This document shows positions 13,872-64,000 of a DNA stretch of 64,000 bases, in pieces. The notes beneath the pieces are model-generated. The model saw nothing but the letters and a program-made list of their open reading frames with translations. It was not told the origin of the DNA and searched no databases. The stretch comes from an uncultured Erysipelotrichaceae bacterium. GTDB lineage: Bacteria; Bacillota_I; Bacilli_A; RF39; UBA660. The DNA lies in the NCBI GenBank assembly GCA_963535465.1, contig CAUSWF010000003.1, positions 38,112-102,111 of the forward strand. The letters run 5' to 3'. Each line of letters begins with the position of its first letter. Position 1 is the first letter of the stretch. A program made the position numbers and the translations under genes.

Positions 13872-14015
13872 TACACCTCCTCATTTAGGAGTGCCATAAA
13901 AAAGGTTCTTCACGCGAAGAACCTCTTTATCTATAAAAAGTTCCTCGGTAGGATTTATTTATATACCTACTGTCTATGGCACCAATAAATTAAAACTATT
14001 ATATACAACTATTTT
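13872..14015 (-). promoter_or_regulatory. Probable L10 (rplJ) autoregulatory leader RNA
   Basis: 144-nt untranslated region upstream of rplJ. Contains a long-range stem GUGCCAUAG...CUAUGGCAC and a perfect internal hairpin GUUCUUCGCGUGAAGAAC, consistent with L10-leader architecture in Firmicutes. Confidence 0.45.
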
Positions 14016-34917: not shown

Positions 34918-35160
34918 AAAAAAAGACTATAACATAAGGACGAATAACCGCGGTACCACCTTATTTTATAGTCATACTATACACTCTTTAGTTAACGCCT
35001 ACCACGTCTATATCTACATATCGATATAGCAGTTCAAAAGCCATCCAAAATATTATCTAATATCCTTCTCACCAAACAGGACTCTCTTAAATTAAATTAA
35101 TATCTCTCTCTTTTTCAAAACATTTATACAAAAACTATAACTCATAATTTACCTAAATGC
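34918..35160 (-). promoter_or_regulatory. T-box riboswitch leader of metG
   Basis: The minus strand contains the canonical T-box sequence AAUAAGGUGGUACCGCGG (plus strand 34945-34966). It is followed by a terminator T-run immediately upstream of the metG RBS. Confidence 0.6.
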
Positions 35161-45427: not shown

Positions 45428-45874
45428 CTAATTTCTTTTATTTTCAAAGAATTTAGACATCAATTCAAAAGATTTATCCACAGCTAAATTTGTTTCAAAA
45501 TTTACTTTAGAATTTATATCATCGTTTAAAAAAATTTTATTAACAATAAAATTATTAAGTTCATTTTGACCATTAAGTGCAGAATAAACATTTTTTATTC
45601 TAGATTGTTTAATAGCACTAGCACACATAGGACATGGATCAAGAGTAACATATATATCACAATCATCTAGCCTCCAGTTATTTAACTTCTTAGAAGCTTC
45701 TGATATTGCTATTAGCTCAGCATGAGATAAAGAACACTTATTACTTTCCTTTAAATTATAAGCTTTAGCAATAATTTGATTGTTATAAACAATAACCGCA
45801 CCAACAGGTACTTCATTATTATTAAAAGCAATATAAGCTTGTTCAAAAGCAACATCCATAAACTCTTTTTTCAT
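45428..45874 (-). CDS. tadA: tRNA-specific adenosine deaminase
   Basis: HAE (SHAELIAI) and PCxxC (DPCPMCASAI) deaminase motifs. Start set to the internal Met (MKKEFMD) preceded by GGAGA. The 28-codon upstream extension in the ORF track overlaps a structured RNA. Confidence 0.9.
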   Translation of the reverse strand: MKKEFMDVAFEQAYIAFNNNEVPVGAVIVYNNQIIAKAYNLKESNKCSLSHAELIAISEASKKLNNWRLDDCDIYVTLDPCPMCASAIKQSRIKNVYSALNGQNELNNFIVNKIFLNDDINSKVNFETNLAVDKSFELMSKFFENKRN

Positions 45875-45884
45875 ATTATCTCCA

Positions 45885-45975
45885 TATAAAAAGTGCACAT
45901 GAAAGTTGAATTTTAAGGCTGCTGTCTTCCAACTCTGACCTGGTTCAATCGCTTTCATTGCACGATTAAATTATA
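45885..45975 (-). ncRNA. ffs: Signal recognition particle RNA (small 4.5S-type), probable
   Basis: Minus strand reads GUGCAAUGAAAG-CGA-UUGAA-CCAGGUCAGAGUUGGAAGACAGCAGCC-UUAAAA-UUCAA-CUUUCAUGUGCAC. Closing helices pair, and the apical part carries the conserved domain-IV signature (CAGGUC...GGAAG...AGCAGC). Synteny with B. subtilis tadA-scr-dnaX. Confidence 0.5.
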
Positions 45976-46009
45976 TATTATTATCCTCAGTTTGTAAAAT
46001 TATTATTCA

Positions 46010-46027
46010 ATGTTTCACGTGAAACAT
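46010..46027. promoter_or_regulatory. parS site 1 (perfect palindrome ATGTTTCACGTGAAACAT)
   Basis: 16-bp core TGTTTCACGTGAAACA equals the ParB/Spo0J parS consensus. Confidence 0.8.
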
Positions 46028-46160
46028 AATATCTATACTGAGAATAGTACAAAAATAAATAAACATAATATCAATATTTTAATCACATCAAACTAAATTA
46101 CAAAATATCATAATAAATATAATTAAAATTTTAACCAAAATTAATTTTATCTCTTTTAAA

Positions 46161-46178
46161 TTATTTCCCGGGAAATAA
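46161..46178. promoter_or_regulatory. NBS-type site 1 (perfect palindrome TTATTTCCCGGGAAATAA)
   Basis: Core ATTTCCCGGGAAAT equals the B. subtilis Noc-binding-site consensus. The perfect palindrome extends to 24 bp (AAATTATTTCCCGGGAAATAATTT, 46158-46181). Confidence 0.75.
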
Positions 46179-46197
46179 TTTAAGTTATAAATAAAGA

Positions 46198-46215
46198 ATG
46201 TTTCACGTGAAACAT
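46198..46215. promoter_or_regulatory. parS site 2 (perfect)
   Basis: ATGTTTCACGTGAAACAT. The perfect palindrome extends to 22 bp (GAATGTTTCACGTGAAACATTC, 46196-46217). Confidence 0.8.
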
Positions 46216-46308
46216 TCAGTTTACCAAATTAAAATAAAAATAATTCAAAAATAAGTATAATATATAAATTAAAAATTGATATTATTCTAACGGTTATTAA
46301 TTATAAAA

Positions 46309-46326
46309 TTATTTCCCGGGAAATAA
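46309..46326. promoter_or_regulatory. NBS-type site 2 (perfect)
   Basis: TTATTTCCCGGGAAATAA. Perfect 24-bp palindrome at 46306-46329. Confidence 0.75.
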
Positions 46327-46401
46327 TTTTAATAATAATATAGAAAAAAATTAAAAAATAATAATATTTGAAATTATATATAATTTTATTAATCAATATA
46401 T

Positions 46402-46419
46402 ATGTTTCACGTGAAACAT
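46402..46419. promoter_or_regulatory. parS site 3 (perfect)
   Basis: ATGTTTCACGTGAAACAT. Confidence 0.8.
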
Positions 46420-46553
46420 TAAATCCATACTGAGAGTGGTATGAAAATAAGTAAACATAATATTAATATTTTAATAATATCAAACTAAATTATAAAATAT
46501 CATAAATAAATATGATTAAAATTTTAATCAAAATTAATTTTACCTTCTTTAAA

Positions 46554-46571
46554 TTATTTTCCAGGAAATAA
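46554..46571. promoter_or_regulatory. Degenerate NBS-type site (TTATTTTCCAGGAAATAA)
   Basis: Positional homolog of NBS site 1 in repeat unit 2. Two substitutions destroy the CCCGGG core and the symmetry. Confidence 0.5.
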
Positions 46572-46590
46572 TTTAAACTATAAATAAAGA

Positions 46591-46608
46591 ATGTTTCACG
46601 TGAAACAT
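46591..46608. promoter_or_regulatory. parS site 4 (perfect)
   Basis: ATGTTTCACGTGAAACAT, flanked GAATG...CATTC as in site 2. Confidence 0.8.
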
Positions 46609-46700
46609 TCTGTTTGCTAAATTAAAATAAAGATAATTTAAGAATAAGTATAATATAGAAATTAAAAATTGATATTATTCTGCAGTTATTAAGTATAAAA

Positions 46701-46718
46701 TTATTTCCCGGGAAATAA
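46701..46718. promoter_or_regulatory. NBS-type site 3 (perfect)
   Basis: TTATTTCCCGGGAAATAA. Confidence 0.75.
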
Positions 46719-46790
46719 TTTTAATAATAATATAGAAAATCTAAAAATAATAATAAATTGAAATTAATATAATTTAATTAATCGATATAT

Positions 46791-46808
46791 ATGTTTCACG
46801 TGAAACAT
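46791..46808. promoter_or_regulatory. parS site 5 (perfect)
   Basis: ATGTTTCACGTGAAACAT. Confidence 0.8.
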
Positions 46809-46882
46809 AGTAAGGTTATATAACAATAAAAATATATAAATTAAAGATTTAACATAATAGTTAATAACTGTATCTTATTAAA

Positions 46883-46900
46883 TTATTTCCCGGGAAATAA
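46883..46900. promoter_or_regulatory. NBS-type site 4 (perfect)
   Basis: TTATTTCCCGGGAAATAA. Confidence 0.75.
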
Positions 46901-46917
46901 TTTAATATAATAAAATA

Positions 46918-46935
46918 ATGTTTCACGTGAAACAT
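46918..46935. promoter_or_regulatory. parS site 6 (perfect)
   Basis: ATGTTTCACGTGAAACAT. Confidence 0.8.
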
Positions 46936-46985
46936 TATAAAAAATATTCACAACTGATAAAAAGACTTTAAAACATTAATATTAA

Positions 46986-47011
46986 ATAAAAAAATGAAGC
47001 CTACGCTTCAT
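46986..47011 (-). terminator. gyrA terminator overlapping the stop codon
   Basis: ATGAAGCctacGCTTCAT hairpin. On the minus strand it is followed by TTTTTTT. Confidence 0.55.
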
Positions 47012-49445
47012 TTTCTTCTAAATTTCCTTCATCTGAATCTTTATCAACAATGGTTACACTAGCTACTTTTTGAGAATCTTTAAGATTAATTAACTTAACA
47101 CCCTGTGTTGCTCTGCGTAATGTAGGAACTTGTTCTAATGGCATTCGTATAACTATACCACTATCAGTAACAATAACCATATCATAATCACCAGTAACAA
47201 CTGATTTCAATGATACCATCATTCCATTCTTATCAGTAACATTATATGCCTTAACTCCTTTACTACCTCTATGAGTTAATCTATATTCATCAATCGAACT
47301 GATTTTACCATATCCATTTTCAGTAACTATTAATATAGTATCAGAAGAAGTTATTGATTCAGAACCTACAACATATGACCCATCAAGATCAATTCCCTTA
47401 ACTCCAGAAGTATTTCTTCCCATTACTCTTACTTCATCTTCAAGGAATCGAACCATACGGCCATTACTTGCCCCAATAACTATTTCATTTTTTCCACAAG
47501 TCTTTTTAACACTAATTAATTCATCATTTTCTTTAAGAAGTATAGCTATCTTACCAGTTTTTCTAATACTTTCAAACTCTTCAATAGCAGTTCTCTTAAT
47601 ATTTCCATTCTTAGTAGTAAATACTAAATATTTAGTATCTTCATCATCTTTAGATATTTTCAATATCGAACTAATGTTTTCATCTTTATCTAATTGTAAC
47701 AGATTTATAATTGGTAAACCTTTAGATTGTCTAGAATATTCCGGTATCTCATATCCCTTCATTCTATATACTTTACCTTTATTAGAAAAGAATAATACAT
47801 AATCATGTGTTTTTAATGAAATTAATTTATCCACAAAGTCTTTTTCATTTGTAGTCATACCTTTAATTCCTACTCCACCTCTATTTTGTGACTTGTATGT
47901 ATTACTTAATAATCTCTTAATATAACCATTTGATGTTAATGTAATAATAGCATCATCATTTGGTATTAATGACTCATCTTCTATGTAATCTATAGCAGTC
48001 ATATCAATATGTGTCTTTCTATTATCACCATATCTAGATTTAATTTCTAATAATTCATTCTTAATAACTTCTAACACAGCTTTATCACTAGCTAAAATAG
48101 CCTTTAAAGAATCAATTAACTTCATTAAGTCATTTAATTCAGATTCAATCTTATCTCTCTCTAAGCCTGTTAAACGACGTAATTTCATTTCAAGAATTGC
48201 ATTAGCTTGTGCTTCAGTTAAATTAAACCTATTGATAAGACCATTTCTAGCCTCTTCATCACTTTTAGAAGCTCTGATTAATTTGACAACTTCATCAATA
48301 TTATCTAATGCTATCATCAGACCTTGTAATATATGAACTCTCTTTTCAGCTACATCTAAGTCAAACTTTGTTCTTCTTACAATAACTTCTCTTTGGAAAT
48401 CAATATATTTAGCAATAATTTCTTTTAAACCTAATATCTTAGGTGTACGTCCATCTATCATTAAGAATATTATTCCAAAATTTGTTTGAAATGACGTATG
48501 TTTATATAATTGATTTAAAATAACTTGAGGATTTGCATCTCTTTTTAGAGTAATAGTAATTTTAATACCATTCTTTAAATCAGTATGATAATCTGTTATA
48601 CCATCTATTATCTTGTTATGTACAAGATCTGCTACCTTATTTTTTAAATCCATTGAATTTATAGCATATGGTATTTCATCAATAATAATTACATTCTTAC
48701 CATTCTCTTCTTGTATTGTTGCCCTACTTCGTATTGTAATGCTTCCTCTACCAGTCTCATAAGCTTCTTTAATACCTTTATTACCAAGTATTATTCCTCC
48801 AGTAGGAAAATCAGGGCCTTTAATATATTGCATCAATTCTTCTAATGTAATATCTTGATTATCAATATATGCCACACATCCATCTATTACTTCACTTAGA
48901 TTATGAGGAGGAATATTAGTAGCCATACCAACAGCTATACCAGTTGTACCATTTACTAAAATATTAGGTATTCTAGAAGGTAAAACCTCAGGTTCTCTTT
49001 CAGATGCATCAAAGTTATCAATAAAATTAACTGTATCTTTATTAATATTTCGAAGCATTTCTAATGATATTTTAGAAAGTCTAGATTCAGTATAACGCAT
49101 TGCAGCTGCACCATAACCTTCTATATTACCAAAGTTACCATGTCCATCAACTAACATATATCTGAATGAGAAATCTTGAGCCATTCTAACCATAGCTTCA
49201 TATATAGAAGTATCTCCATGTGGGTGATATTTACCCATAACATCTCCGACAATTCTAGCACTCTTCTTATGAGGTTTATCAGGAGTATAACCAGATTCAT
49301 ACATTGAATATAATATTCTTCTATGAACCGGTTTTAAACCATCTCTTAAATCAGGTAAAGCACGTGAAACAATTACACTCATTGAATATTCCAAAAAGGA
49401 ATCTCTTACTTCTTTTACTATATTATTTGATTCTAATCTATCCAT
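47001..49445 (-). CDS. gyrA: DNA gyrase subunit A
   Basis: 814 aa. Active-site region AAMRYTE and the C-terminal beta-pinwheel repeats. Confidence 0.97.
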
Positions 49446-52621: not shown

Positions 52622-53086
52622 CTAATTGCTACTTCTTTTATAGTTTTCTATTCTTGTTCTCATAATTAAGTCTAATCTTGATGCTCTATTGACTTGATTT
52701 TCTATAGATCTAAAGCTACATGGAACTATTAATTCCTTACCATTATCAAAATAAATTATAGTGTTTATAGCGTCAATTTTTTTAAAAGATTTAATTCTTT
52801 TTAAATTAATCCATATACAATCATCGGAAAAAGGCGAAGTTGTAGGAAAAACTATCAAATTATCTCTATCTTGTACTATTATAGGTACTTTATATTCTGC
52901 ACCTAACATTGCTTTTGCACTCTCCTTTCTTCCCGCATAAGTACTTCCAAAATATCTACAAGAATCTTCCATAATTTGATATGGTTTTTCTGAAATCATA
53001 TATCTAGTATCATCTTCATAAACCAAACTTGAATTATTATCTGTTGGAACTATTGCTAAAGTCCCATTATTAATTTCATATTTCAT
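52622..53086 (-). CDS. comK: Competence transcription factor ComK-family protein
   Basis: 154 aa. Colinear with the B. subtilis ComK core (IMEDSCRYFGSTYAGRK vs IVDRSCRFFGSSYAGRK, PIIVQDRDNLIVFPTTS vs PIMVDPSNQIFLFPTLS, FENQVNRASRL vs FENQVYRTAWL). Confidence 0.8.
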   Translation of the reverse strand: MKYEINNGTLAIVPTDNNSSLVYEDDTRYMISEKPYQIMEDSCRYFGSTYAGRKESAKAMLGAEYKVPIIVQDRDNLIVFPTTSPFSDDCIWINLKRIKSFKKIDAINTIIYFDNGKELIVPCSFRSIENQVNRASRLDLIMRTRIENYKRSSN

Positions 53087-55939: not shown

Positions 55940-56160
55940 AAAATATTCCACAAAAAAAATCAAAGTTATCAACAACAACTTCGTTGATATATAAAGAAAA
56001 AATTAACTTTTCCACATTTTCCACAAATTTTTGTTTCAACATGTAATTGTTGACAGTTATATCAACATGTGGAAACTGTTAATAAATATTATTTTTCTTA
56101 AAATTTCTATATATAATAAAGAATAGTTACTAACAATATCTGTGGAAAATAATAATATTC
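55940..56160. promoter_or_regulatory. oriC main DnaA-box cluster with AT-rich unwinding region, upstream of dnaA
   Basis: TTATCAACA at 55966-55974. Two abutting TTTTCCACA boxes at 56008-56025. ATGTGGAAA at 56067-56075 and TGTGGAAAA at 56141-56149 on the opposite strand. AT-rich tracts lie between them. Confidence 0.65.
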
Positions 56161-62325: not shown

Positions 62326-63477
62326 ATGAATGAAGTAAGAGATGAAATAACACAATTATATTTAGATGACATAATACCTAATAGATTTCAACCACGTGAA
62401 ATATTTGATGAAAAAGCATTAAAAGAATTAGCAGCATCTATAAAAGAACATGGTGTTATTCAACCAATTATAGTAAGAAATATAGGCGGGAAATATGAAA
62501 TTATCGCAGGAGAAAGAAGATATAAAGCAAGTGCCTTAGCAGGACTTACTAAAATACCAGCTATAATTAGAAATTTAGATGATAAAGAATCATCAAAAGT
62601 AGCCCTATTAGAAAACTTACAAAGAAAAGATTTAAATGCAATAGAAGAAGCAAGAACTTATCAAAAAATATTAGAACTAGATGAAATGACTCAAGAAGAA
62701 CTAGCAAAAACGATGGGTAAGAGTCAATCCGCAGTAGCTAATAAAATAAGATTATTATCTTTACCTGATGAAATTCAAACTGCACTTCTAAAAGAACAAA
62801 TATCAGAGCGTCATGCAAGATCACTATTAAATATTCCAAATTCAGCAGAACAAATTGAAATGTTGAAAAAAATAATAACTAACAAACTAAGTGTGAGACA
62901 ATTGGAGGCAGAATTGAAAGCAAAAGAAGAACCAAAAGAAATAGCATCATCAGCACAAATAAATACTAATCCATTAACACCAGATGCAAATCTATTAACA
63001 TCTTCTAATCCATTTGGAGAAATCAAAATAGCTCCTCCAACTGAAAATGAAGAAATAGAACCAATCGATTTTTCATCTGAAGAAGATGATGAAGAAGAAA
63101 ACGACGAAAAATTTAATGATATTTCTATCCCATCAATTGACGAAGTAAAAGCAAATACAGAAGATGTTGGAACACAAAATAATTTTAATCTAGATAGTTT
63201 ATTAAATATAAACACATTAAATCAACATAAAACAACTGCAGAAAAAATCATAGAAAATGATGACGAAAAACATAATGTAGTAGAAGAAAATTATTTTCAA
63301 AGTCCAGATTTTACAGTTATTCCAACGCCTAAAGAAGAACCAGTTTATACATTAGAAACAGGAAAAGAAAAATTATTAGAAGTAATAAACGAATTAAAAT
63401 CTAAAGGTTTAAGAATAGATGTTCAACAAATGGACTTAACAAATACATTCCAAATAATAATAAAACTAGAAAAGTAA
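62326..63477 (+). CDS. noc: ParB-family CTPase paralog at the noc position, with Noc-type specificity residues, no N-terminal membrane-targeting segment and a long acidic disordered C-terminal tail
   Basis: ParB N-domain motifs (IPNRFQPR, GERRYKA). HTH helix GKSQSAVANKIRLLSLP...ERHAR. At the four recognition positions 0, +6, +11 and +28 it has Q, K, S, R. As I recall the B. subtilis sequences, Noc has Q, K, K, R and Spo0J has R, H, T, G. The C-terminal 180 aa are low-complexity and acidic (SSEEDDEEENDE). Gene order is rsmG-noc-soj. Confidence 0.75.
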   Translation: MNEVRDEITQLYLDDIIPNRFQPREIFDEKALKELAASIKEHGVIQPIIVRNIGGKYEIIAGERRYKASALAGLTKIPAIIRNLDDKESSKVALLENLQRKDLNAIEEARTYQKILELDEMTQEELAKTMGKSQSAVANKIRLLSLPDEIQTALLKEQISERHARSLLNIPNSAEQIEMLKKIITNKLSVRQLEAELKAKEEPKEIASSAQINTNPLTPDANLLTSSNPFGEIKIAPPTENEEIEPIDFSSEEDDEEENDEKFNDISIPSIDEVKANTEDVGTQNNFNLDSLLNINTLNQHKTTAEKIIENDDEKHNVVEENYFQSPDFTVIPTPKEEPVYTLETGKEKLLEVINELKSKGLRIDVQQMDLTNTFQIIIKLEK

Positions 63478-63563: not shown

Positions 63564-64000
63564 ATGGGAAAGATAATATCATTAGTAAATCAAAAAGGTG
63601 GAGTAGGAAAAACAACAACTAGTATAAATTTAGCAGCTTCACTAGGATATTATGGTAAAAAAGTATTATTAGTTGACCTAGATCCACAAGGTAATACGAC
63701 AACAGGAATAGGTATAAATAAAGGAAAAATAACATATAACTTGTATGATGTATTAATAGGAGCATGTAATATAAAAGATTCGATTATAGTTACAAAATTC
63801 AAAAACTTATCAGTATTACCAGCAAGTATTAATTTATCTTCATTAGAAGCAGACTTGAGAGATAAATCAGATATTATAGGGTTAAGAGGAGAACAACTAA
63901 AACATAATTTAAGTGAAGTAAAAGATGATTATGATTATATAATAGTTGATTGTCCACCAACACTATCAATATTGATAACAAATGCCTTAACAGCATCTGA
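63564..64000 (+). CDS. soj: ParA-family chromosome partitioning ATPase Soj (3' end beyond window)
   Basis: Deviant Walker A KGGVGKTT in MGKIISLVNQKGGVGKTTTSINLAA. Open to the end of the window. Confidence 0.9.
   Translation, partial: MGKIISLVNQKGGVGKTTTSINLAASLGYYGKKVLLVDLDPQGNTTTGIGINKGKITYNLYDVLIGACNIKDSIIVTKFKNLSVLPASINLSSLEADLRDKSDIIGLRGEQLKHNLSEVKDDYDYIIVDCPPTLSILITNALTAS

What the first reader, a model, noticed from the sequence alone, without database searches (positions are those of the whole stretch)
46001..46940. Tandem-repeat array interleaving six perfect parS and four to five Noc-binding-site palindromes in a gene-free region 8.5 kb from oriC
The intergenic region between SRP RNA/tadA and gyrA is a 2.4-copy tandem repeat of about 392 bp. 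Each unit carries two copies of ATGTTTCACGTGAAACAT, whose 16-bp core TGTTTCACGTGAAACA is the ParB/Spo0J parS consensus. Each unit also carries two copies of TTATTTCCCGGGAAATAA, whose core ATTTCCCGGGAAAT is the B. subtilis Noc-binding-site consensus. The sites alternate strictly (P-N-P-N-P-N'-P-N-P-N-P) with spacings of about 133, 19, 93 and 75 bp. In characterised Firmicutes, parS sites are dispersed and often lie inside genes, and NBS sites are scattered over the origin-proximal two-thirds of the chromosome. A dedicated, amplified, non-coding array carrying both site types in perfect-palindrome form is not something I know to be described. It would make two CTP-dependent ParB-family sliding clamps load at interdigitated sites, where each could be a roadblock or a cooperative partner for the other. 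It could act as a composite centromere and nucleoid-occlusion nucleation locus next to the origin. The GC-rich palindrome cores in a 28%-GC background and the 85-90% identity between units argue for selection or recent amplification rather than drift.
Basis: partly seen in the sequence, partly recalled or inferred. Interest (0 to 1): 0.92.

Follow-up and report, generated by a model that had tools for sequence, protein, structure and literature searches.

The report
Interleaved parS/NBS centromere array near oriC
About 9 kb from the replication origin, this uncultured gut bacterium has a non-coding repeat array that alternates the docking sites of two related DNA-clamp proteins (ParB and a Noc-like paralog). 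The same mixed array is conserved at the same spot in well over a hundred related species, and I found no published description of it.

Summary
The window holds six perfect parS and four perfect plus one degenerate Noc-binding site (NBS), strictly alternating in the 1-kb gyrA–SRP RNA gap. Neither motif occurs elsewhere in the 64 kb.

It is not a one-off. A scan for an NBS–parS pair hit at least 119 species-level genomes of uncultured low-GC Bacilli, nearly all at the same syntenic position. All 8 relatives chosen blind also have both site types there. Repeat units range from 64 to about 400 bp across species. Copy number varies between strains, yet every parS stays perfect.

The genome encodes rsmG–noc-like–soj–spo0J:
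- Spo0J has parS-reading residues (R173/G201) and a ParA-binding motif.
- The paralog has NBS-reading residues (Q173/K179/R201) and an intact GERR box.
- The paralog, like 145 of 150 family representatives, has too short an N-terminus for Noc's membrane helix. It carries an acidic, motif-bearing insert of about 140 aa.

In this clade NBS sites recur at a few fixed positions, most within about −17 to +5 kb of oriC.

Best reading: a dual-clamp centromere or origin domain, not classical nucleoid occlusion. Protein binding is inferred, not shown. An apparent helical phasing of the sites was not confirmed.

The parts
46010..46935 (.). Interleaved parS/NBS tandem array in the non-coding gyrA–ffs gap
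   Evidence: TRF finds a 393-bp period, 2.0 copies and 89% matches, plus a 198-bp sub-period. Repeat families are listed. No ORF exceeds 31 aa. GC is 15.9%.
46011..46026 (.). parS P1 (perfect). It lies 13 bp upstream of the -35 element of the SRP RNA promoter.
46163..46176 (.). NBS N1 (perfect core within a perfect 28-bp palindrome, 46156-46183)
46199..46214 (.). parS P2 (perfect), centre 37 bp from N1
46311..46324 (.). NBS N2 (perfect)
46403..46418 (.). parS P3 (perfect)
46556..46569 (.). Degenerate NBS (ATTTTCCAGGAAAT, 2 mismatches). The homologous copy is perfect in strain loci L130 and L131.
46592..46607 (.). parS P4 (perfect)
46703..46716 (.). NBS N4 (perfect)
46792..46807 (.). parS P5 (perfect)
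46885..46898 (.). NBS N5 (perfect core within a perfect 28-bp palindrome)
46919..46934 (.). parS P6 (perfect), centre 35 bp from N5
45878..45974 (-). SRP RNA gene (ffs), the left boundary of the array. ffs bounds the array in all 6 relatives tested.
   Evidence: Rfam RF00169 at 51.1 bits; relatives
45970..45998 (-). Near-consensus sigma-70-type promoter (TTTACA-17-TATAAT) for ffs
   Evidence: consensus match only
46988..47017 (-). Intrinsic-terminator-like hairpin after gyrA, the right boundary of the array
47001..49445 (-). gyrA, the syntenic landmark on the origin side of the array
   Evidence: NCBIfam NF004043 at 1139 bits. gyrA lies in 105 of 119 array loci.
45428..45874 (-). tadA, the syntenic landmark on the far side of the array
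   Evidence: tadA lies in 96 of 119 array loci.
55966..56149 (.). DnaA-box cluster and GC-skew switch: oriC, between dnaA and rpmH
62326..63477 (+). Noc-like ParB paralog, the predicted NBS reader. It has Q134/K140/S145/R162 (Caulobacter positions 173/179/184/201), a GERR box, no N-terminal amphipathic helix, no ParA-binding motif, and an acidic low-confidence insert at about residues 202-340.
63564..64000 (+). soj/parA, with its 5' part running off the window. spo0J (295 aa; R173/G201; LGRGL ParA-binding motif) follows just outside the window at L120:12008-12895.

Best explanation
The array is the chromosome's centromere. It is the only parS cluster in the roughly 85 kb I hold around oriC, and in this clade it is built as a two-reader loading platform.

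Proposed mechanism:
- ParB/Spo0J nucleates on the six parS sites.
- The Noc-like paralog nucleates on the interleaved NBS sites.
- Each closes into a CTP-bound sliding clamp and spreads, so both occupy the same origin-proximal domain.
- ParB keeps the canonical roles, namely ParA/Soj interaction through its LGRGL motif and, by analogy, SMC loading.
- The paralog cannot bind membrane through an N-terminal helix or bind ParA. It probably delivers an unknown partner to the origin domain through short conserved motifs in its acidic, disordered insert.
- This points to an origin-organising, replication-coupling or division-coupling role rather than chromosome-wide nucleoid occlusion.

Shown here:
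- the sites and their statistical significance
- conservation, synteny and non-random interleaving of the mixed cluster
- the specificity residues of the two proteins
- loss of the membrane helix
- the small number of recurrent NBS positions in the clade, most of them near oriC

Inferred:
- actual binding of each protein to its site
- CTP clamp behaviour
- co-occupancy of the origin domain
- the downstream function
For: Sites:
- Exact consensus matches are far above chance and confined to the array.

Conservation:
gyrA lies in 105 of the loci and tadA in 96.
- Site density inside the gyrA-tadA gap is 5.1 parS and 2.5 NBS per kb. Outside it is 0.075 and 0.10 per kb.
- All 8 relatives chosen blind through TadA homologs carry both site types in the gap.
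- Repeat units of 64 to about 400 bp indicate independent amplifications.
- Alternation exceeds permutation expectation, with z=4.2 and z=7.9.
- Strains with identical GyrA carry 4, 5 or 6 parS. All parS are perfect, and each strain keeps at least 2 perfect NBS.

Readers:
- The operon is rsmG-noc-like-soj-spo0J.
- Spo0J reads GKSRS...TMGHAR (R173/G201), has LGRGL, and its best solved relative is B. subtilis Spo0J.
- The paralog has Q173/K179/R201 and its best solved relatives are Noc structures.
- Jalal 2020 (PMC7383237) shows that Q173 reads A1 and R201 reads C6, given one permissive lysine at 179 or 184.
- All 150 family representatives keep Q, K/R and R/K at these positions, plus GERR.

Not classical Noc:
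- An in-frame stop lies just before the ATG.
- 145 of 150 representatives have only 9-21 residues before PNRFQPR.
- Adams 2015 and Jalal 2021 show the N-terminal helix is required for membrane binding and for function.
- The insert is acidic and has no basic amphipathic segment.

NBS distribution:
- A metagenome scan for NBS alone gave 75 of 120 loci at gyrA/tadA/dnaX.
- Most other hits map to recurrent positions: the last codon of recF, the DnaX linker, ybaB/recR, a methyltransferase, rsmI/pth, jag-mnmE and mnmE-mnmG.
- Six long loci map to the flanks of polA.
Against: - There are no binding data for either protein.
- Position 184 is S/N/T/A rather than lysine. NBS specificity therefore rests on a rule established in a Caulobacter ParB scaffold.
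- The clade's NBS has extended conserved flanks (a 22-28 bp palindrome) that are not part of the Bacillus consensus. These could reflect extra contacts or a different reader.
- Individual NBS copies decay in some strains while parS never does. NBS copies are therefore under weaker constraint.
- Alternation is partly an automatic result of duplicating a P-N unit.
Core-only NBS far from oriC could have been missed.
- Apart from one case within 71 kb of an array, the distance of the polA-flank NBS from oriC is unknown.
- The window species itself has none of the solitary flanking NBS seen in relatives.
- The helical-phasing signal that would have argued for simultaneous occupancy was not reproduced.
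Confidence: 0.6

Rival explanations
1. Roadblock or insulator model. NBS-bound Noc-like dimers act mainly as barriers that trap ParB-CTP clamps between neighbouring parS sites. This would give a compact, high-density partition complex and limit spreading into gyrA and ffs. The Noc-like protein would be an accessory of the centromere rather than an independent effector.
For: DNA-bound proteins block ParB-CTP sliding in vitro and in vivo (TetR roadblock, PMC7053999). KorA and TrbA lock the ParB-family clamp KorB at adjacent sites (PMC11790492, PMC13584720). Some arrays pack the two site types only 26-49 bp apart.
Against: By analogy with Noc, a CTP-bound Noc-like clamp should leave its NBS rather than sit on it. 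Solitary NBS exist at recurrent positions with no parS nearby. The conserved motif-rich insert suggests the paralog has partners of its own.
Confidence: 0.15
2. Classical nucleoid occlusion. The protein is an ordinary Noc, and the array is simply a strong origin-proximal nucleation point for a membrane-tethered complex that inhibits division.
For: The NBS core is identical to that of B. subtilis and S. aureus. The gene is the positional ortholog of noc, and Noc structures are its best solved relatives. Spo0J and Noc jointly prevent premature Z rings in B. subtilis (PMC6852036).
Against: There is no N-terminal amphipathic helix, nor room for one. NocNΔ10 is non-functional in B. subtilis. The insert is acidic and has no basic amphipathic segment. 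NBS sites recur at a few positions, most within about −17 to +5 kb of oriC. The NCBIfam Noc model scores below its curated cut-off (281 against 315).
Confidence: 0.08
3. Largely neutral by-product. One ancestral P-N pair in a recombination-prone AT-rich spacer keeps being amplified and contracted. Only parS is functional, and NBS copies hitch-hike.
For: Copy number changes by half and whole units between near-identical strains. NBS copies decay while parS does not. Alternation follows automatically from duplicating a unit.
Against: Perfect NBS persist in the gap in at least 119 selected species-level genomes and in all 8 blind-sampled relatives, although the spacers have diverged. The NBS flanks are conserved out to 22-28 bp. 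A matching reader protein is conserved across at least 150 clusters at 50% identity. Solitary NBS are maintained inside coding sequence at fixed positions.
Confidence: 0.1
4. The GC-rich palindromes serve something else, such as transcriptional control of ffs or gyrA, restriction-modification targets (CCCGGG, CACGTG), or binding by an unrelated factor.
For: A parS lies 44-70 bp upstream of the SRP RNA 5' end in the window and in 5 of 6 relatives. parS hairpins followed by T runs score as terminator-like sites.
Against: 6-bp restriction-modification sites cannot explain 16-28 bp of conservation. Both palindromes match the experimentally defined sites of proteins encoded 16 kb away. The module was not found on viral contigs, plasmids or phages.
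Confidence: 0.05

Closest known systems
Noc–NBS nucleoid occlusion system of Bacillus subtilis and Staphylococcus aureus
   Same: The 14/16-bp NBS core is identical. The protein is a ParB-family protein with the Q173 / K179-or-K184 / R201 specificity code and a GERR CTP box. The gene order is rsmG–noc–soj–spo0J. Solved Noc structures are the best PDB relatives.
   Different: The protein lacks the N-terminal amphipathic helix (α1) and α2 that are required for membrane binding and function. It has an acidic insert of about 140 to over 500 aa with conserved short motifs. NBS sites are few, recur at fixed positions mostly near oriC, and are interleaved with parS. [quoted passage not shown] The NBS palindrome extends to 22-28 bp.
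Chromosomal ParABS centromeres with clustered parS (for example Corynebacterium glutamicum, Pseudomonas aeruginosa, Caulobacter)
   Same: There are several consensus parS sites close to oriC. The cognate ParB carries a ParA-binding motif, and ParA is encoded nearby. Clustered parS are documented in PMC7083940 and PMC4368675.
   Different: Here all parS sit in one intergenic tandem-repeat array whose copy number varies between strains, and they alternate with sites for a second ParB-family paralog. In model Firmicutes the parS sites are separate and often lie inside genes (own knowledge).
Plasmid centromeres built of tandem repeats, such as F-plasmid sopC with twelve 43-bp repeats each holding a SopB site (own knowledge, not checked here)
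   Same: The array architecture is similar: short units (64-84 bp in L012, L074, L009) each carry a palindromic ParB-family site and are repeated head to tail.
   Different: This array is chromosomal, contains two alternating site types for two paralogous readers, and was not found on plasmids, phages or viral contigs.
KorB–KorA and KorB–TrbA on plasmid RK2 (PMC11790492, PMC13584720)
   Same: A ParB-family CTP clamp has its behaviour modified by a second DNA-binding protein whose operator lies next to the clamp's loading or target site.
   Different: The partner there is an unrelated small repressor that locks the clamp for gene silencing. Here the neighbour is itself a ParB-family clamp, and no interaction between the two has been shown.

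Membership tests
parS (chromosomal ParB/Spo0J centromere site) | 16-bp palindrome matching TGTTNCACGTGAAACA | tested here: met
   Six exact matches; 0 expected by chance.
parS (chromosomal ParB/Spo0J centromere site) | Origin-proximal location | tested here: met
   About 9 kb from the DnaA-box cluster and GC-skew switch.
parS (chromosomal ParB/Spo0J centromere site) | Cognate ParB with parS-type residues (R173, G201) and a ParA-binding motif, with ParA encoded in the genome | tested here: met
   The Spo0J at L120:12008-12895 reads GKSRS...TMGHAR and has LGRGL at residue 10. soj is adjacent. Its best solved relative is B. subtilis Spo0J.
parS (chromosomal ParB/Spo0J centromere site) | Specific ParB binding with CTP-dependent spreading from the site | not testable with these tools
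   Needs EMSA, BLI or ChIP.
NBS (Noc-binding site) | Palindrome matching ATTTCCCGGGAAAT (16-bp form TATTTCCCGGGAAATA) | tested here: met
   Four exact copies and one copy with 2 mismatches; 0.13 expected by chance. The 16-bp form is also matched.
NBS (Noc-binding site) | [quoted passage not shown] | tested here: not met
   There are none outside the array in about 85 kb of this species. Across the clade, NBS-bearing metagenome loci map to the array plus a few recurrent positions.
Noc (nucleoid occlusion protein, TIGR04285) | ParB_N plus HTH_ParB architecture with an intact CTP-binding GERR box | tested here: met
   Pfam PF02195 and PF17762. GERR is present in 150 of 150 family representatives. 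The model is confident for residues 7-200 and 343-382.
Noc (nucleoid occlusion protein, TIGR04285) | NBS-specificity residues: Q173, R201 and a lysine at 179 and/or 184 | tested here: met
   Q134, K140 and R162 in the window protein; position 184 is Ser. All 150 representatives have Q, K/R and R/K at the three positions.
Noc (nucleoid occlusion protein, TIGR04285) | Gene located between rsmG (gidB) and soj-spo0J | tested here: met
Noc (nucleoid occlusion protein, TIGR04285) | Conserved N-terminal amphipathic membrane-targeting helix, required for function | tested here: not met
   An in-frame stop lies immediately upstream of the ATG. Only 17 residues precede PNRFQPR. 145 of 150 representatives have 9-21 residues there. 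No basic amphipathic segment occurs elsewhere. The requirement comes from PMC4331003 and PMC8429893.
Noc (nucleoid occlusion protein, TIGR04285) | Score above the curated NCBIfam cut-off | tested here: not met
   281 bits against a cut-off of 315. The genome's own Spo0J scores 239.5.
Noc (nucleoid occlusion protein, TIGR04285) | Membrane recruitment of DNA and inhibition of division over the nucleoid | not testable with these tools
   Needs liposome co-sedimentation and in vivo assays.
Tandem-repeat array | Head-to-tail copies detected by Tandem Repeats Finder | tested here: met
   Period 393, 2.0 copies, 89% matches, score 1289. Strain variants differ by half and whole units.

The most novel reading that the evidence does not exclude
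A large clade of uncultured gut Bacilli runs a 'dual-clamp centromere'. Noc here is not a chromosome-wide, membrane-tethering division inhibitor. It is an origin-restricted partner of ParB that co-loads at an interleaved parS/NBS array and brings a new partner to the origin through its acidic insert.

A stronger form of this reading is that the clade preserves the ancestral intermediate of the ParB-to-Noc transition. In that scenario DNA specificity had already switched, with NBS arising from parS copies inside the centromere array. The membrane helix and the genome-wide dispersal of NBS would have evolved later.
Probability: 0.4. Interest if true: 0.9.

Novelty: new variant of a known kind. 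Interest (0 to 1): 0.78.

Why it matters
ParB and Noc are the textbook pair for how a duplicated DNA-binding protein acquires a new site and a new job. In the model organisms their sites are separate and their functions differ.

In this clade evolution has kept the two site types interleaved at the centromere across well over a hundred species. The Noc partner has lost the membrane anchor that defines its known mechanism and has gained a motif-rich insert.

This offers three things:
- a natural substrate for asking how two CTP-dependent sliding clamps behave when they load side by side, whether by cooperation, exclusion or roadblocking
- a candidate intermediate, or alternative outcome, in the ParB-to-Noc neofunctionalisation mapped by Jalal et al. 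2020
- a lead on origin organisation in abundant, uncultured, small-genome gut Bacilli

All of it can be tested in vitro with two recombinant proteins and a DNA fragment of 64-400 bp.

Tried and rejected
- **Helical phasing of neighbouring NBS and parS.** The genome set looked trimodal at about 26, 36 and 48 bp, roughly 2.5, 3.5 and 4.5 turns (jitter null p<0.0005). After collapsing related spacers and using a uniform null over the scan's 20-50 bp selection window, p=0.026. The metagenome set, which was not selected on N-P distance, gave p=0.12-0.29. I do not rely on it. Only a mode at 36-37 bp, the window's own spacing, is robust.
- **DnaA-box cluster in the array.** There is none. The boxes cluster at 55966-56149.
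- **Hidden gene or RNA in the array.** ORFs are at most 31 aa and there is no Rfam hit.
- **Mobile element.** The composite module is absent from viral contigs, and the array has no megablast match in plasmids or phages.
- **Relocated membrane anchor in the insert.** The insert is acidic (35 D/E against 10 K/R) and has no basic amphipathic segment. The model gives only two short helices at low confidence.
- **Naming the organism.** Record titles say Bacilli bacterium, Erysipelotrichaceae, Tenericutes, Mycoplasma sp. or Clostridium sp. CAG:710/1000/417. From my own knowledge these look like GTDB RF39-type lineages, but that was not verified. The NCBI taxonomy entry for 'Candidatus Scybalousia' is unhelpful. 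The source species itself was not among the 119 genome loci; the best gyrA DNA identity was 80%.
- **Whether the helix-less state is ancestral or derived.** The 150 best family representatives are all of the clade type, so canonical Noc proteins were not sampled and no rooted tree was built.
Full report
**Observation.** The region 46,010-46,935 holds six exact copies of the 16-bp parS consensus, four exact copies of the 14-bp Noc-binding-site (NBS) core, and one NBS copy with two mismatches. They alternate strictly. Neither motif occurs elsewhere in the 64-kb window even with two mismatches, and dinucleotide-preserving shuffles predict 0 and 0.13 matches. Tandem Repeats Finder reports a 393-bp unit (2.0 copies, 89% matches) and an older 198-bp sub-period. 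In this window the NBS is a perfect 28-bp palindrome. The stretch is non-coding, with ORFs of at most 31 aa and no Rfam family, and it is 15.9% GC. It is bounded by the gyrA terminator on one side and by the promoter and gene of the SRP RNA on the other. The gene order is dnaX-tadA-ffs-[array]-gyrA-gyrB-recF-comK-like-dnaN-dnaA-oriC-rpmH-rnpA-yidC-jag-mnmE-mnmG-rsmG-noc-like-soj. A GC-skew switch and a DnaA-box cluster lie at about 56,000, which puts the array about 9 kb from oriC.

**The two readers.** Directly after rsmG lies a 383-aa ParB-family gene (62326-63477), followed by soj. Contigs of the same species show that a 295-aa spo0J comes next. Spo0J reads GKSRS...TMGHAR, which corresponds to R173/G201 in Caulobacter numbering. 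It carries the ParA-binding motif LGRGL, and its best solved relative is B. subtilis Spo0J. The paralog reads GKSQS...ANK...RLLSLP...SERHAR, which corresponds to Q173, K179, S184 and R201. Its best solved relatives are Noc structures from Geobacillus and B. subtilis. Jalal et al. 2020 showed that Q173 reads adenine 1 and R201 reads cytosine 6 of NBS, provided one permissive lysine is present at 179 or 184 (PMC7383237). The prediction is therefore Spo0J on parS and the paralog on NBS. That is an inference from sequence, not a measurement.

**The paralog is not a standard Noc.** An in-frame stop lies immediately upstream of its ATG, so only 17 residues precede the PNRFQPR box. All 68 listed close homologs share that short N-terminus, as do 145 of 150 representatives of clusters at 50% identity. 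All 150 representatives keep Q173, K/R179 and R/K201 plus the GERR CTP box, and none has lysine at 184. Adams 2015 reported that every Noc homologue they examined has the conserved N-terminal amphipathic helix, and that removing ten residues abolishes membrane binding and function. Jalal 2021 confirmed the helix as the CTP-gated membrane anchor. The clade protein also lacks the ParA-binding motif. Between its DNA-binding domain and its C-terminal domain it carries an insert that is about 140 aa in the window protein; family members reach 798 aa in total. The insert is acidic (35 D/E against 10 K/R) and modelled at low confidence. It contains several short motifs that are invariant or nearly so across homologs of 55-60% identity. 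It scores 281 bits on the NCBIfam Noc model, below the curated cut-off of 315.

**Conservation of the array.** Almost all are MAGs labelled Bacilli, Erysipelotrichaceae, Tenericutes, Mycoplasma sp. or Clostridium sp. CAG, with 22-37% GC. Nearly every locus carries a cluster of several sites of both kinds. gyrA lies within the 8-kb locus in 105 cases, tadA in 96 and dnaX in 91, although the gyrA DNA is at most 80% identical to the window. In the 82 loci that hold both landmarks, the gap contains 314 parS and 157 NBS in 62 kb. The remaining 574 kb contains 43 parS and 59 NBS. All eight, representing about five species groups, have both site types in the gyrA-tadA gap. One has a second (N-P)x5 array between tadA and dnaX. 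The SRP RNA gene bounds the array in all six relatives tested. Unit lengths differ widely between species (64, 75, 76, 82-84, about 119, about 200 and about 400 bp), which implies repeated independent amplification of a P-N module. Alternation exceeds permutation expectation (z=4.2 for arrays not selected on adjacency, z=7.9 for the selected set), although duplication of a unit contributes to this automatically. Among ten strain loci of the window species with 100% identical GyrA, arrays carry 6, 5 or 4 parS and differ by half or whole units. Every parS is perfect in every strain. Individual NBS copies carry 1-2 mismatches at positions that vary between strains, and at least two perfect NBS always remain.

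**Where else the sites occur.**
- In the window species no other parS or NBS (up to 2 mismatches) occurs in the 64-kb window or in the next 10 kb of the right arm.
- In the flanks of the 119 genome loci there are 41 isolated perfect NBS, 33 of them inside coding sequence and most with the extended palindrome. Only 6 isolated parS were found.
- A metagenome scan for the extended NBS alone, with no parS requirement, returned 120 loci. Of these, 53 are arrays and 75 carry gyrA, tadA or dnaX.
- The solitary NBS map to a few recurrent positions: the last codon of recF, the variable linker of DnaX, ybaB/recR, residues 104-107 of a methyltransferase, rsmI/pth, jag-mnmE and mnmE-mnmG. All of these lie within about −17 to +5 kb of oriC in window coordinates.
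- The six long loci without window homologs all place the NBS next to polA. In one case the polA locus is on the same 71-kb contig as an array; for the others its distance from oriC is unknown.
- In this clade the NBS set therefore appears small, fixed in position and mostly close to the origin. [quoted passage not shown]

**Interpretation.** The array is best read as the centromere of these chromosomes, built to load two ParB-family clamps at the same place. ParB would do the usual partition work. The Noc-like protein has no membrane anchor, no ParA motif and a short list of recurrent NBS positions. It is better described as an origin-domain factor that brings an unknown partner through its insert than as a nucleoid-occlusion protein. 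Precedents make a functional link plausible. Spo0J and Noc act together on Z-ring timing in B. subtilis (PMC6852036). S. aureus Noc controls replication initiation through species-specific contacts (PMC5540599). Rival readings are listed separately: roadblock or insulator, classical nucleoid occlusion, neutral hitch-hiking of NBS, and another reader or another function. The roadblock idea has real precedent and is not excluded.

**Checks that came to nothing.** An apparent 10-11-bp phasing of N-P distances was significant in the selected genome set but weak under a conservative null (p=0.026), and it was not reproduced in the independent set. The array contains no DnaA-box cluster, gene or RNA. 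There is no sign of a mobile element, and no substitute membrane helix was found.

**Novelty.** Full-text searches for parS/Noc/NBS combinations, and a 2025 survey of the ParB-CTPase fold, gave no description of mixed parS/NBS arrays or of a helix-less, insert-bearing Noc. The components are known kinds. The arrangement, the altered reader and the short list of recurrent NBS positions make this a new variant of a known kind. It is directly testable with two recombinant proteins and a short DNA fragment.

Noticed in passing
window 52622-53086 (-): A 154-aa ComK-family protein (Pfam PF06338, E=2.3e-45; no NCBIfam hit) sits between recF and dnaN, inside the origin gene cluster. A ComK-family gene occupies the same position in all 8 blind-sampled relatives (L134-L141).
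   Followed up: partly
L137 9235-9525; L140 9231-9521: In two relatives a 96-aa ORF with a weak TfoX_N (PF04993) hit lies inside the gyrA-tadA gap and splits the parS/NBS cluster. This is a second competence-regulator-like gene next to the origin.
   Followed up: no
L141 10458-10969: A second, strictly alternating (NBS-parS)x5 array with a 119-bp period lies between tadA and dnaX, in addition to the array in the gyrA-tadA gap.
   Followed up: partly
L147, L179, L196, L228, L229, L235: Solitary NBS recur on one or both sides of polA (polC-polA and polA-fpg junctions). This is another fixed NBS position outside the region covered by the window. L196 is on the same 71-kb contig as an array locus (L167).
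   Followed up: partly
L005, L006, L013, L030, L038, L047, L057, L064; L042, L058: Records labelled Muribaculaceae, Bacteroides helcogenes or 'Candidatus Scybalousia' carry this low-GC composite module, and NCBI places the last genus in Bacteroidales. These are probably mis-binned or mislabelled MAG contigs.
   Followed up: no
window 46011-46026 and 45970-45998: The parS nearest to ffs lies 13 bp upstream of the -35 element of a near-consensus SRP RNA promoter. In 5 of 6 relatives a parS centre lies 44-70 bp upstream of the SRP RNA 5' end. A possible effect on ffs transcription was not examined.
   Followed up: partly
window 62326-63477 (residues about 202-340) and alignment A1: The acidic insert of the Noc-like protein holds short motifs that are invariant or nearly so across homologs of 55-60% identity (NPLxP, GKVxIAPP, FINYGE, LDxLLNI, TPAEKI, DYF). 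Their binding partners are unknown. Total length in the family ranges up to 798 aa.
   Followed up: partly
window 34933-35127 (-) and 13888-13997 (-): A T-box leader and a ribosomal protein L10 leader were found by Rfam. Both are ordinary and unrelated to the finding.
   Followed up: no
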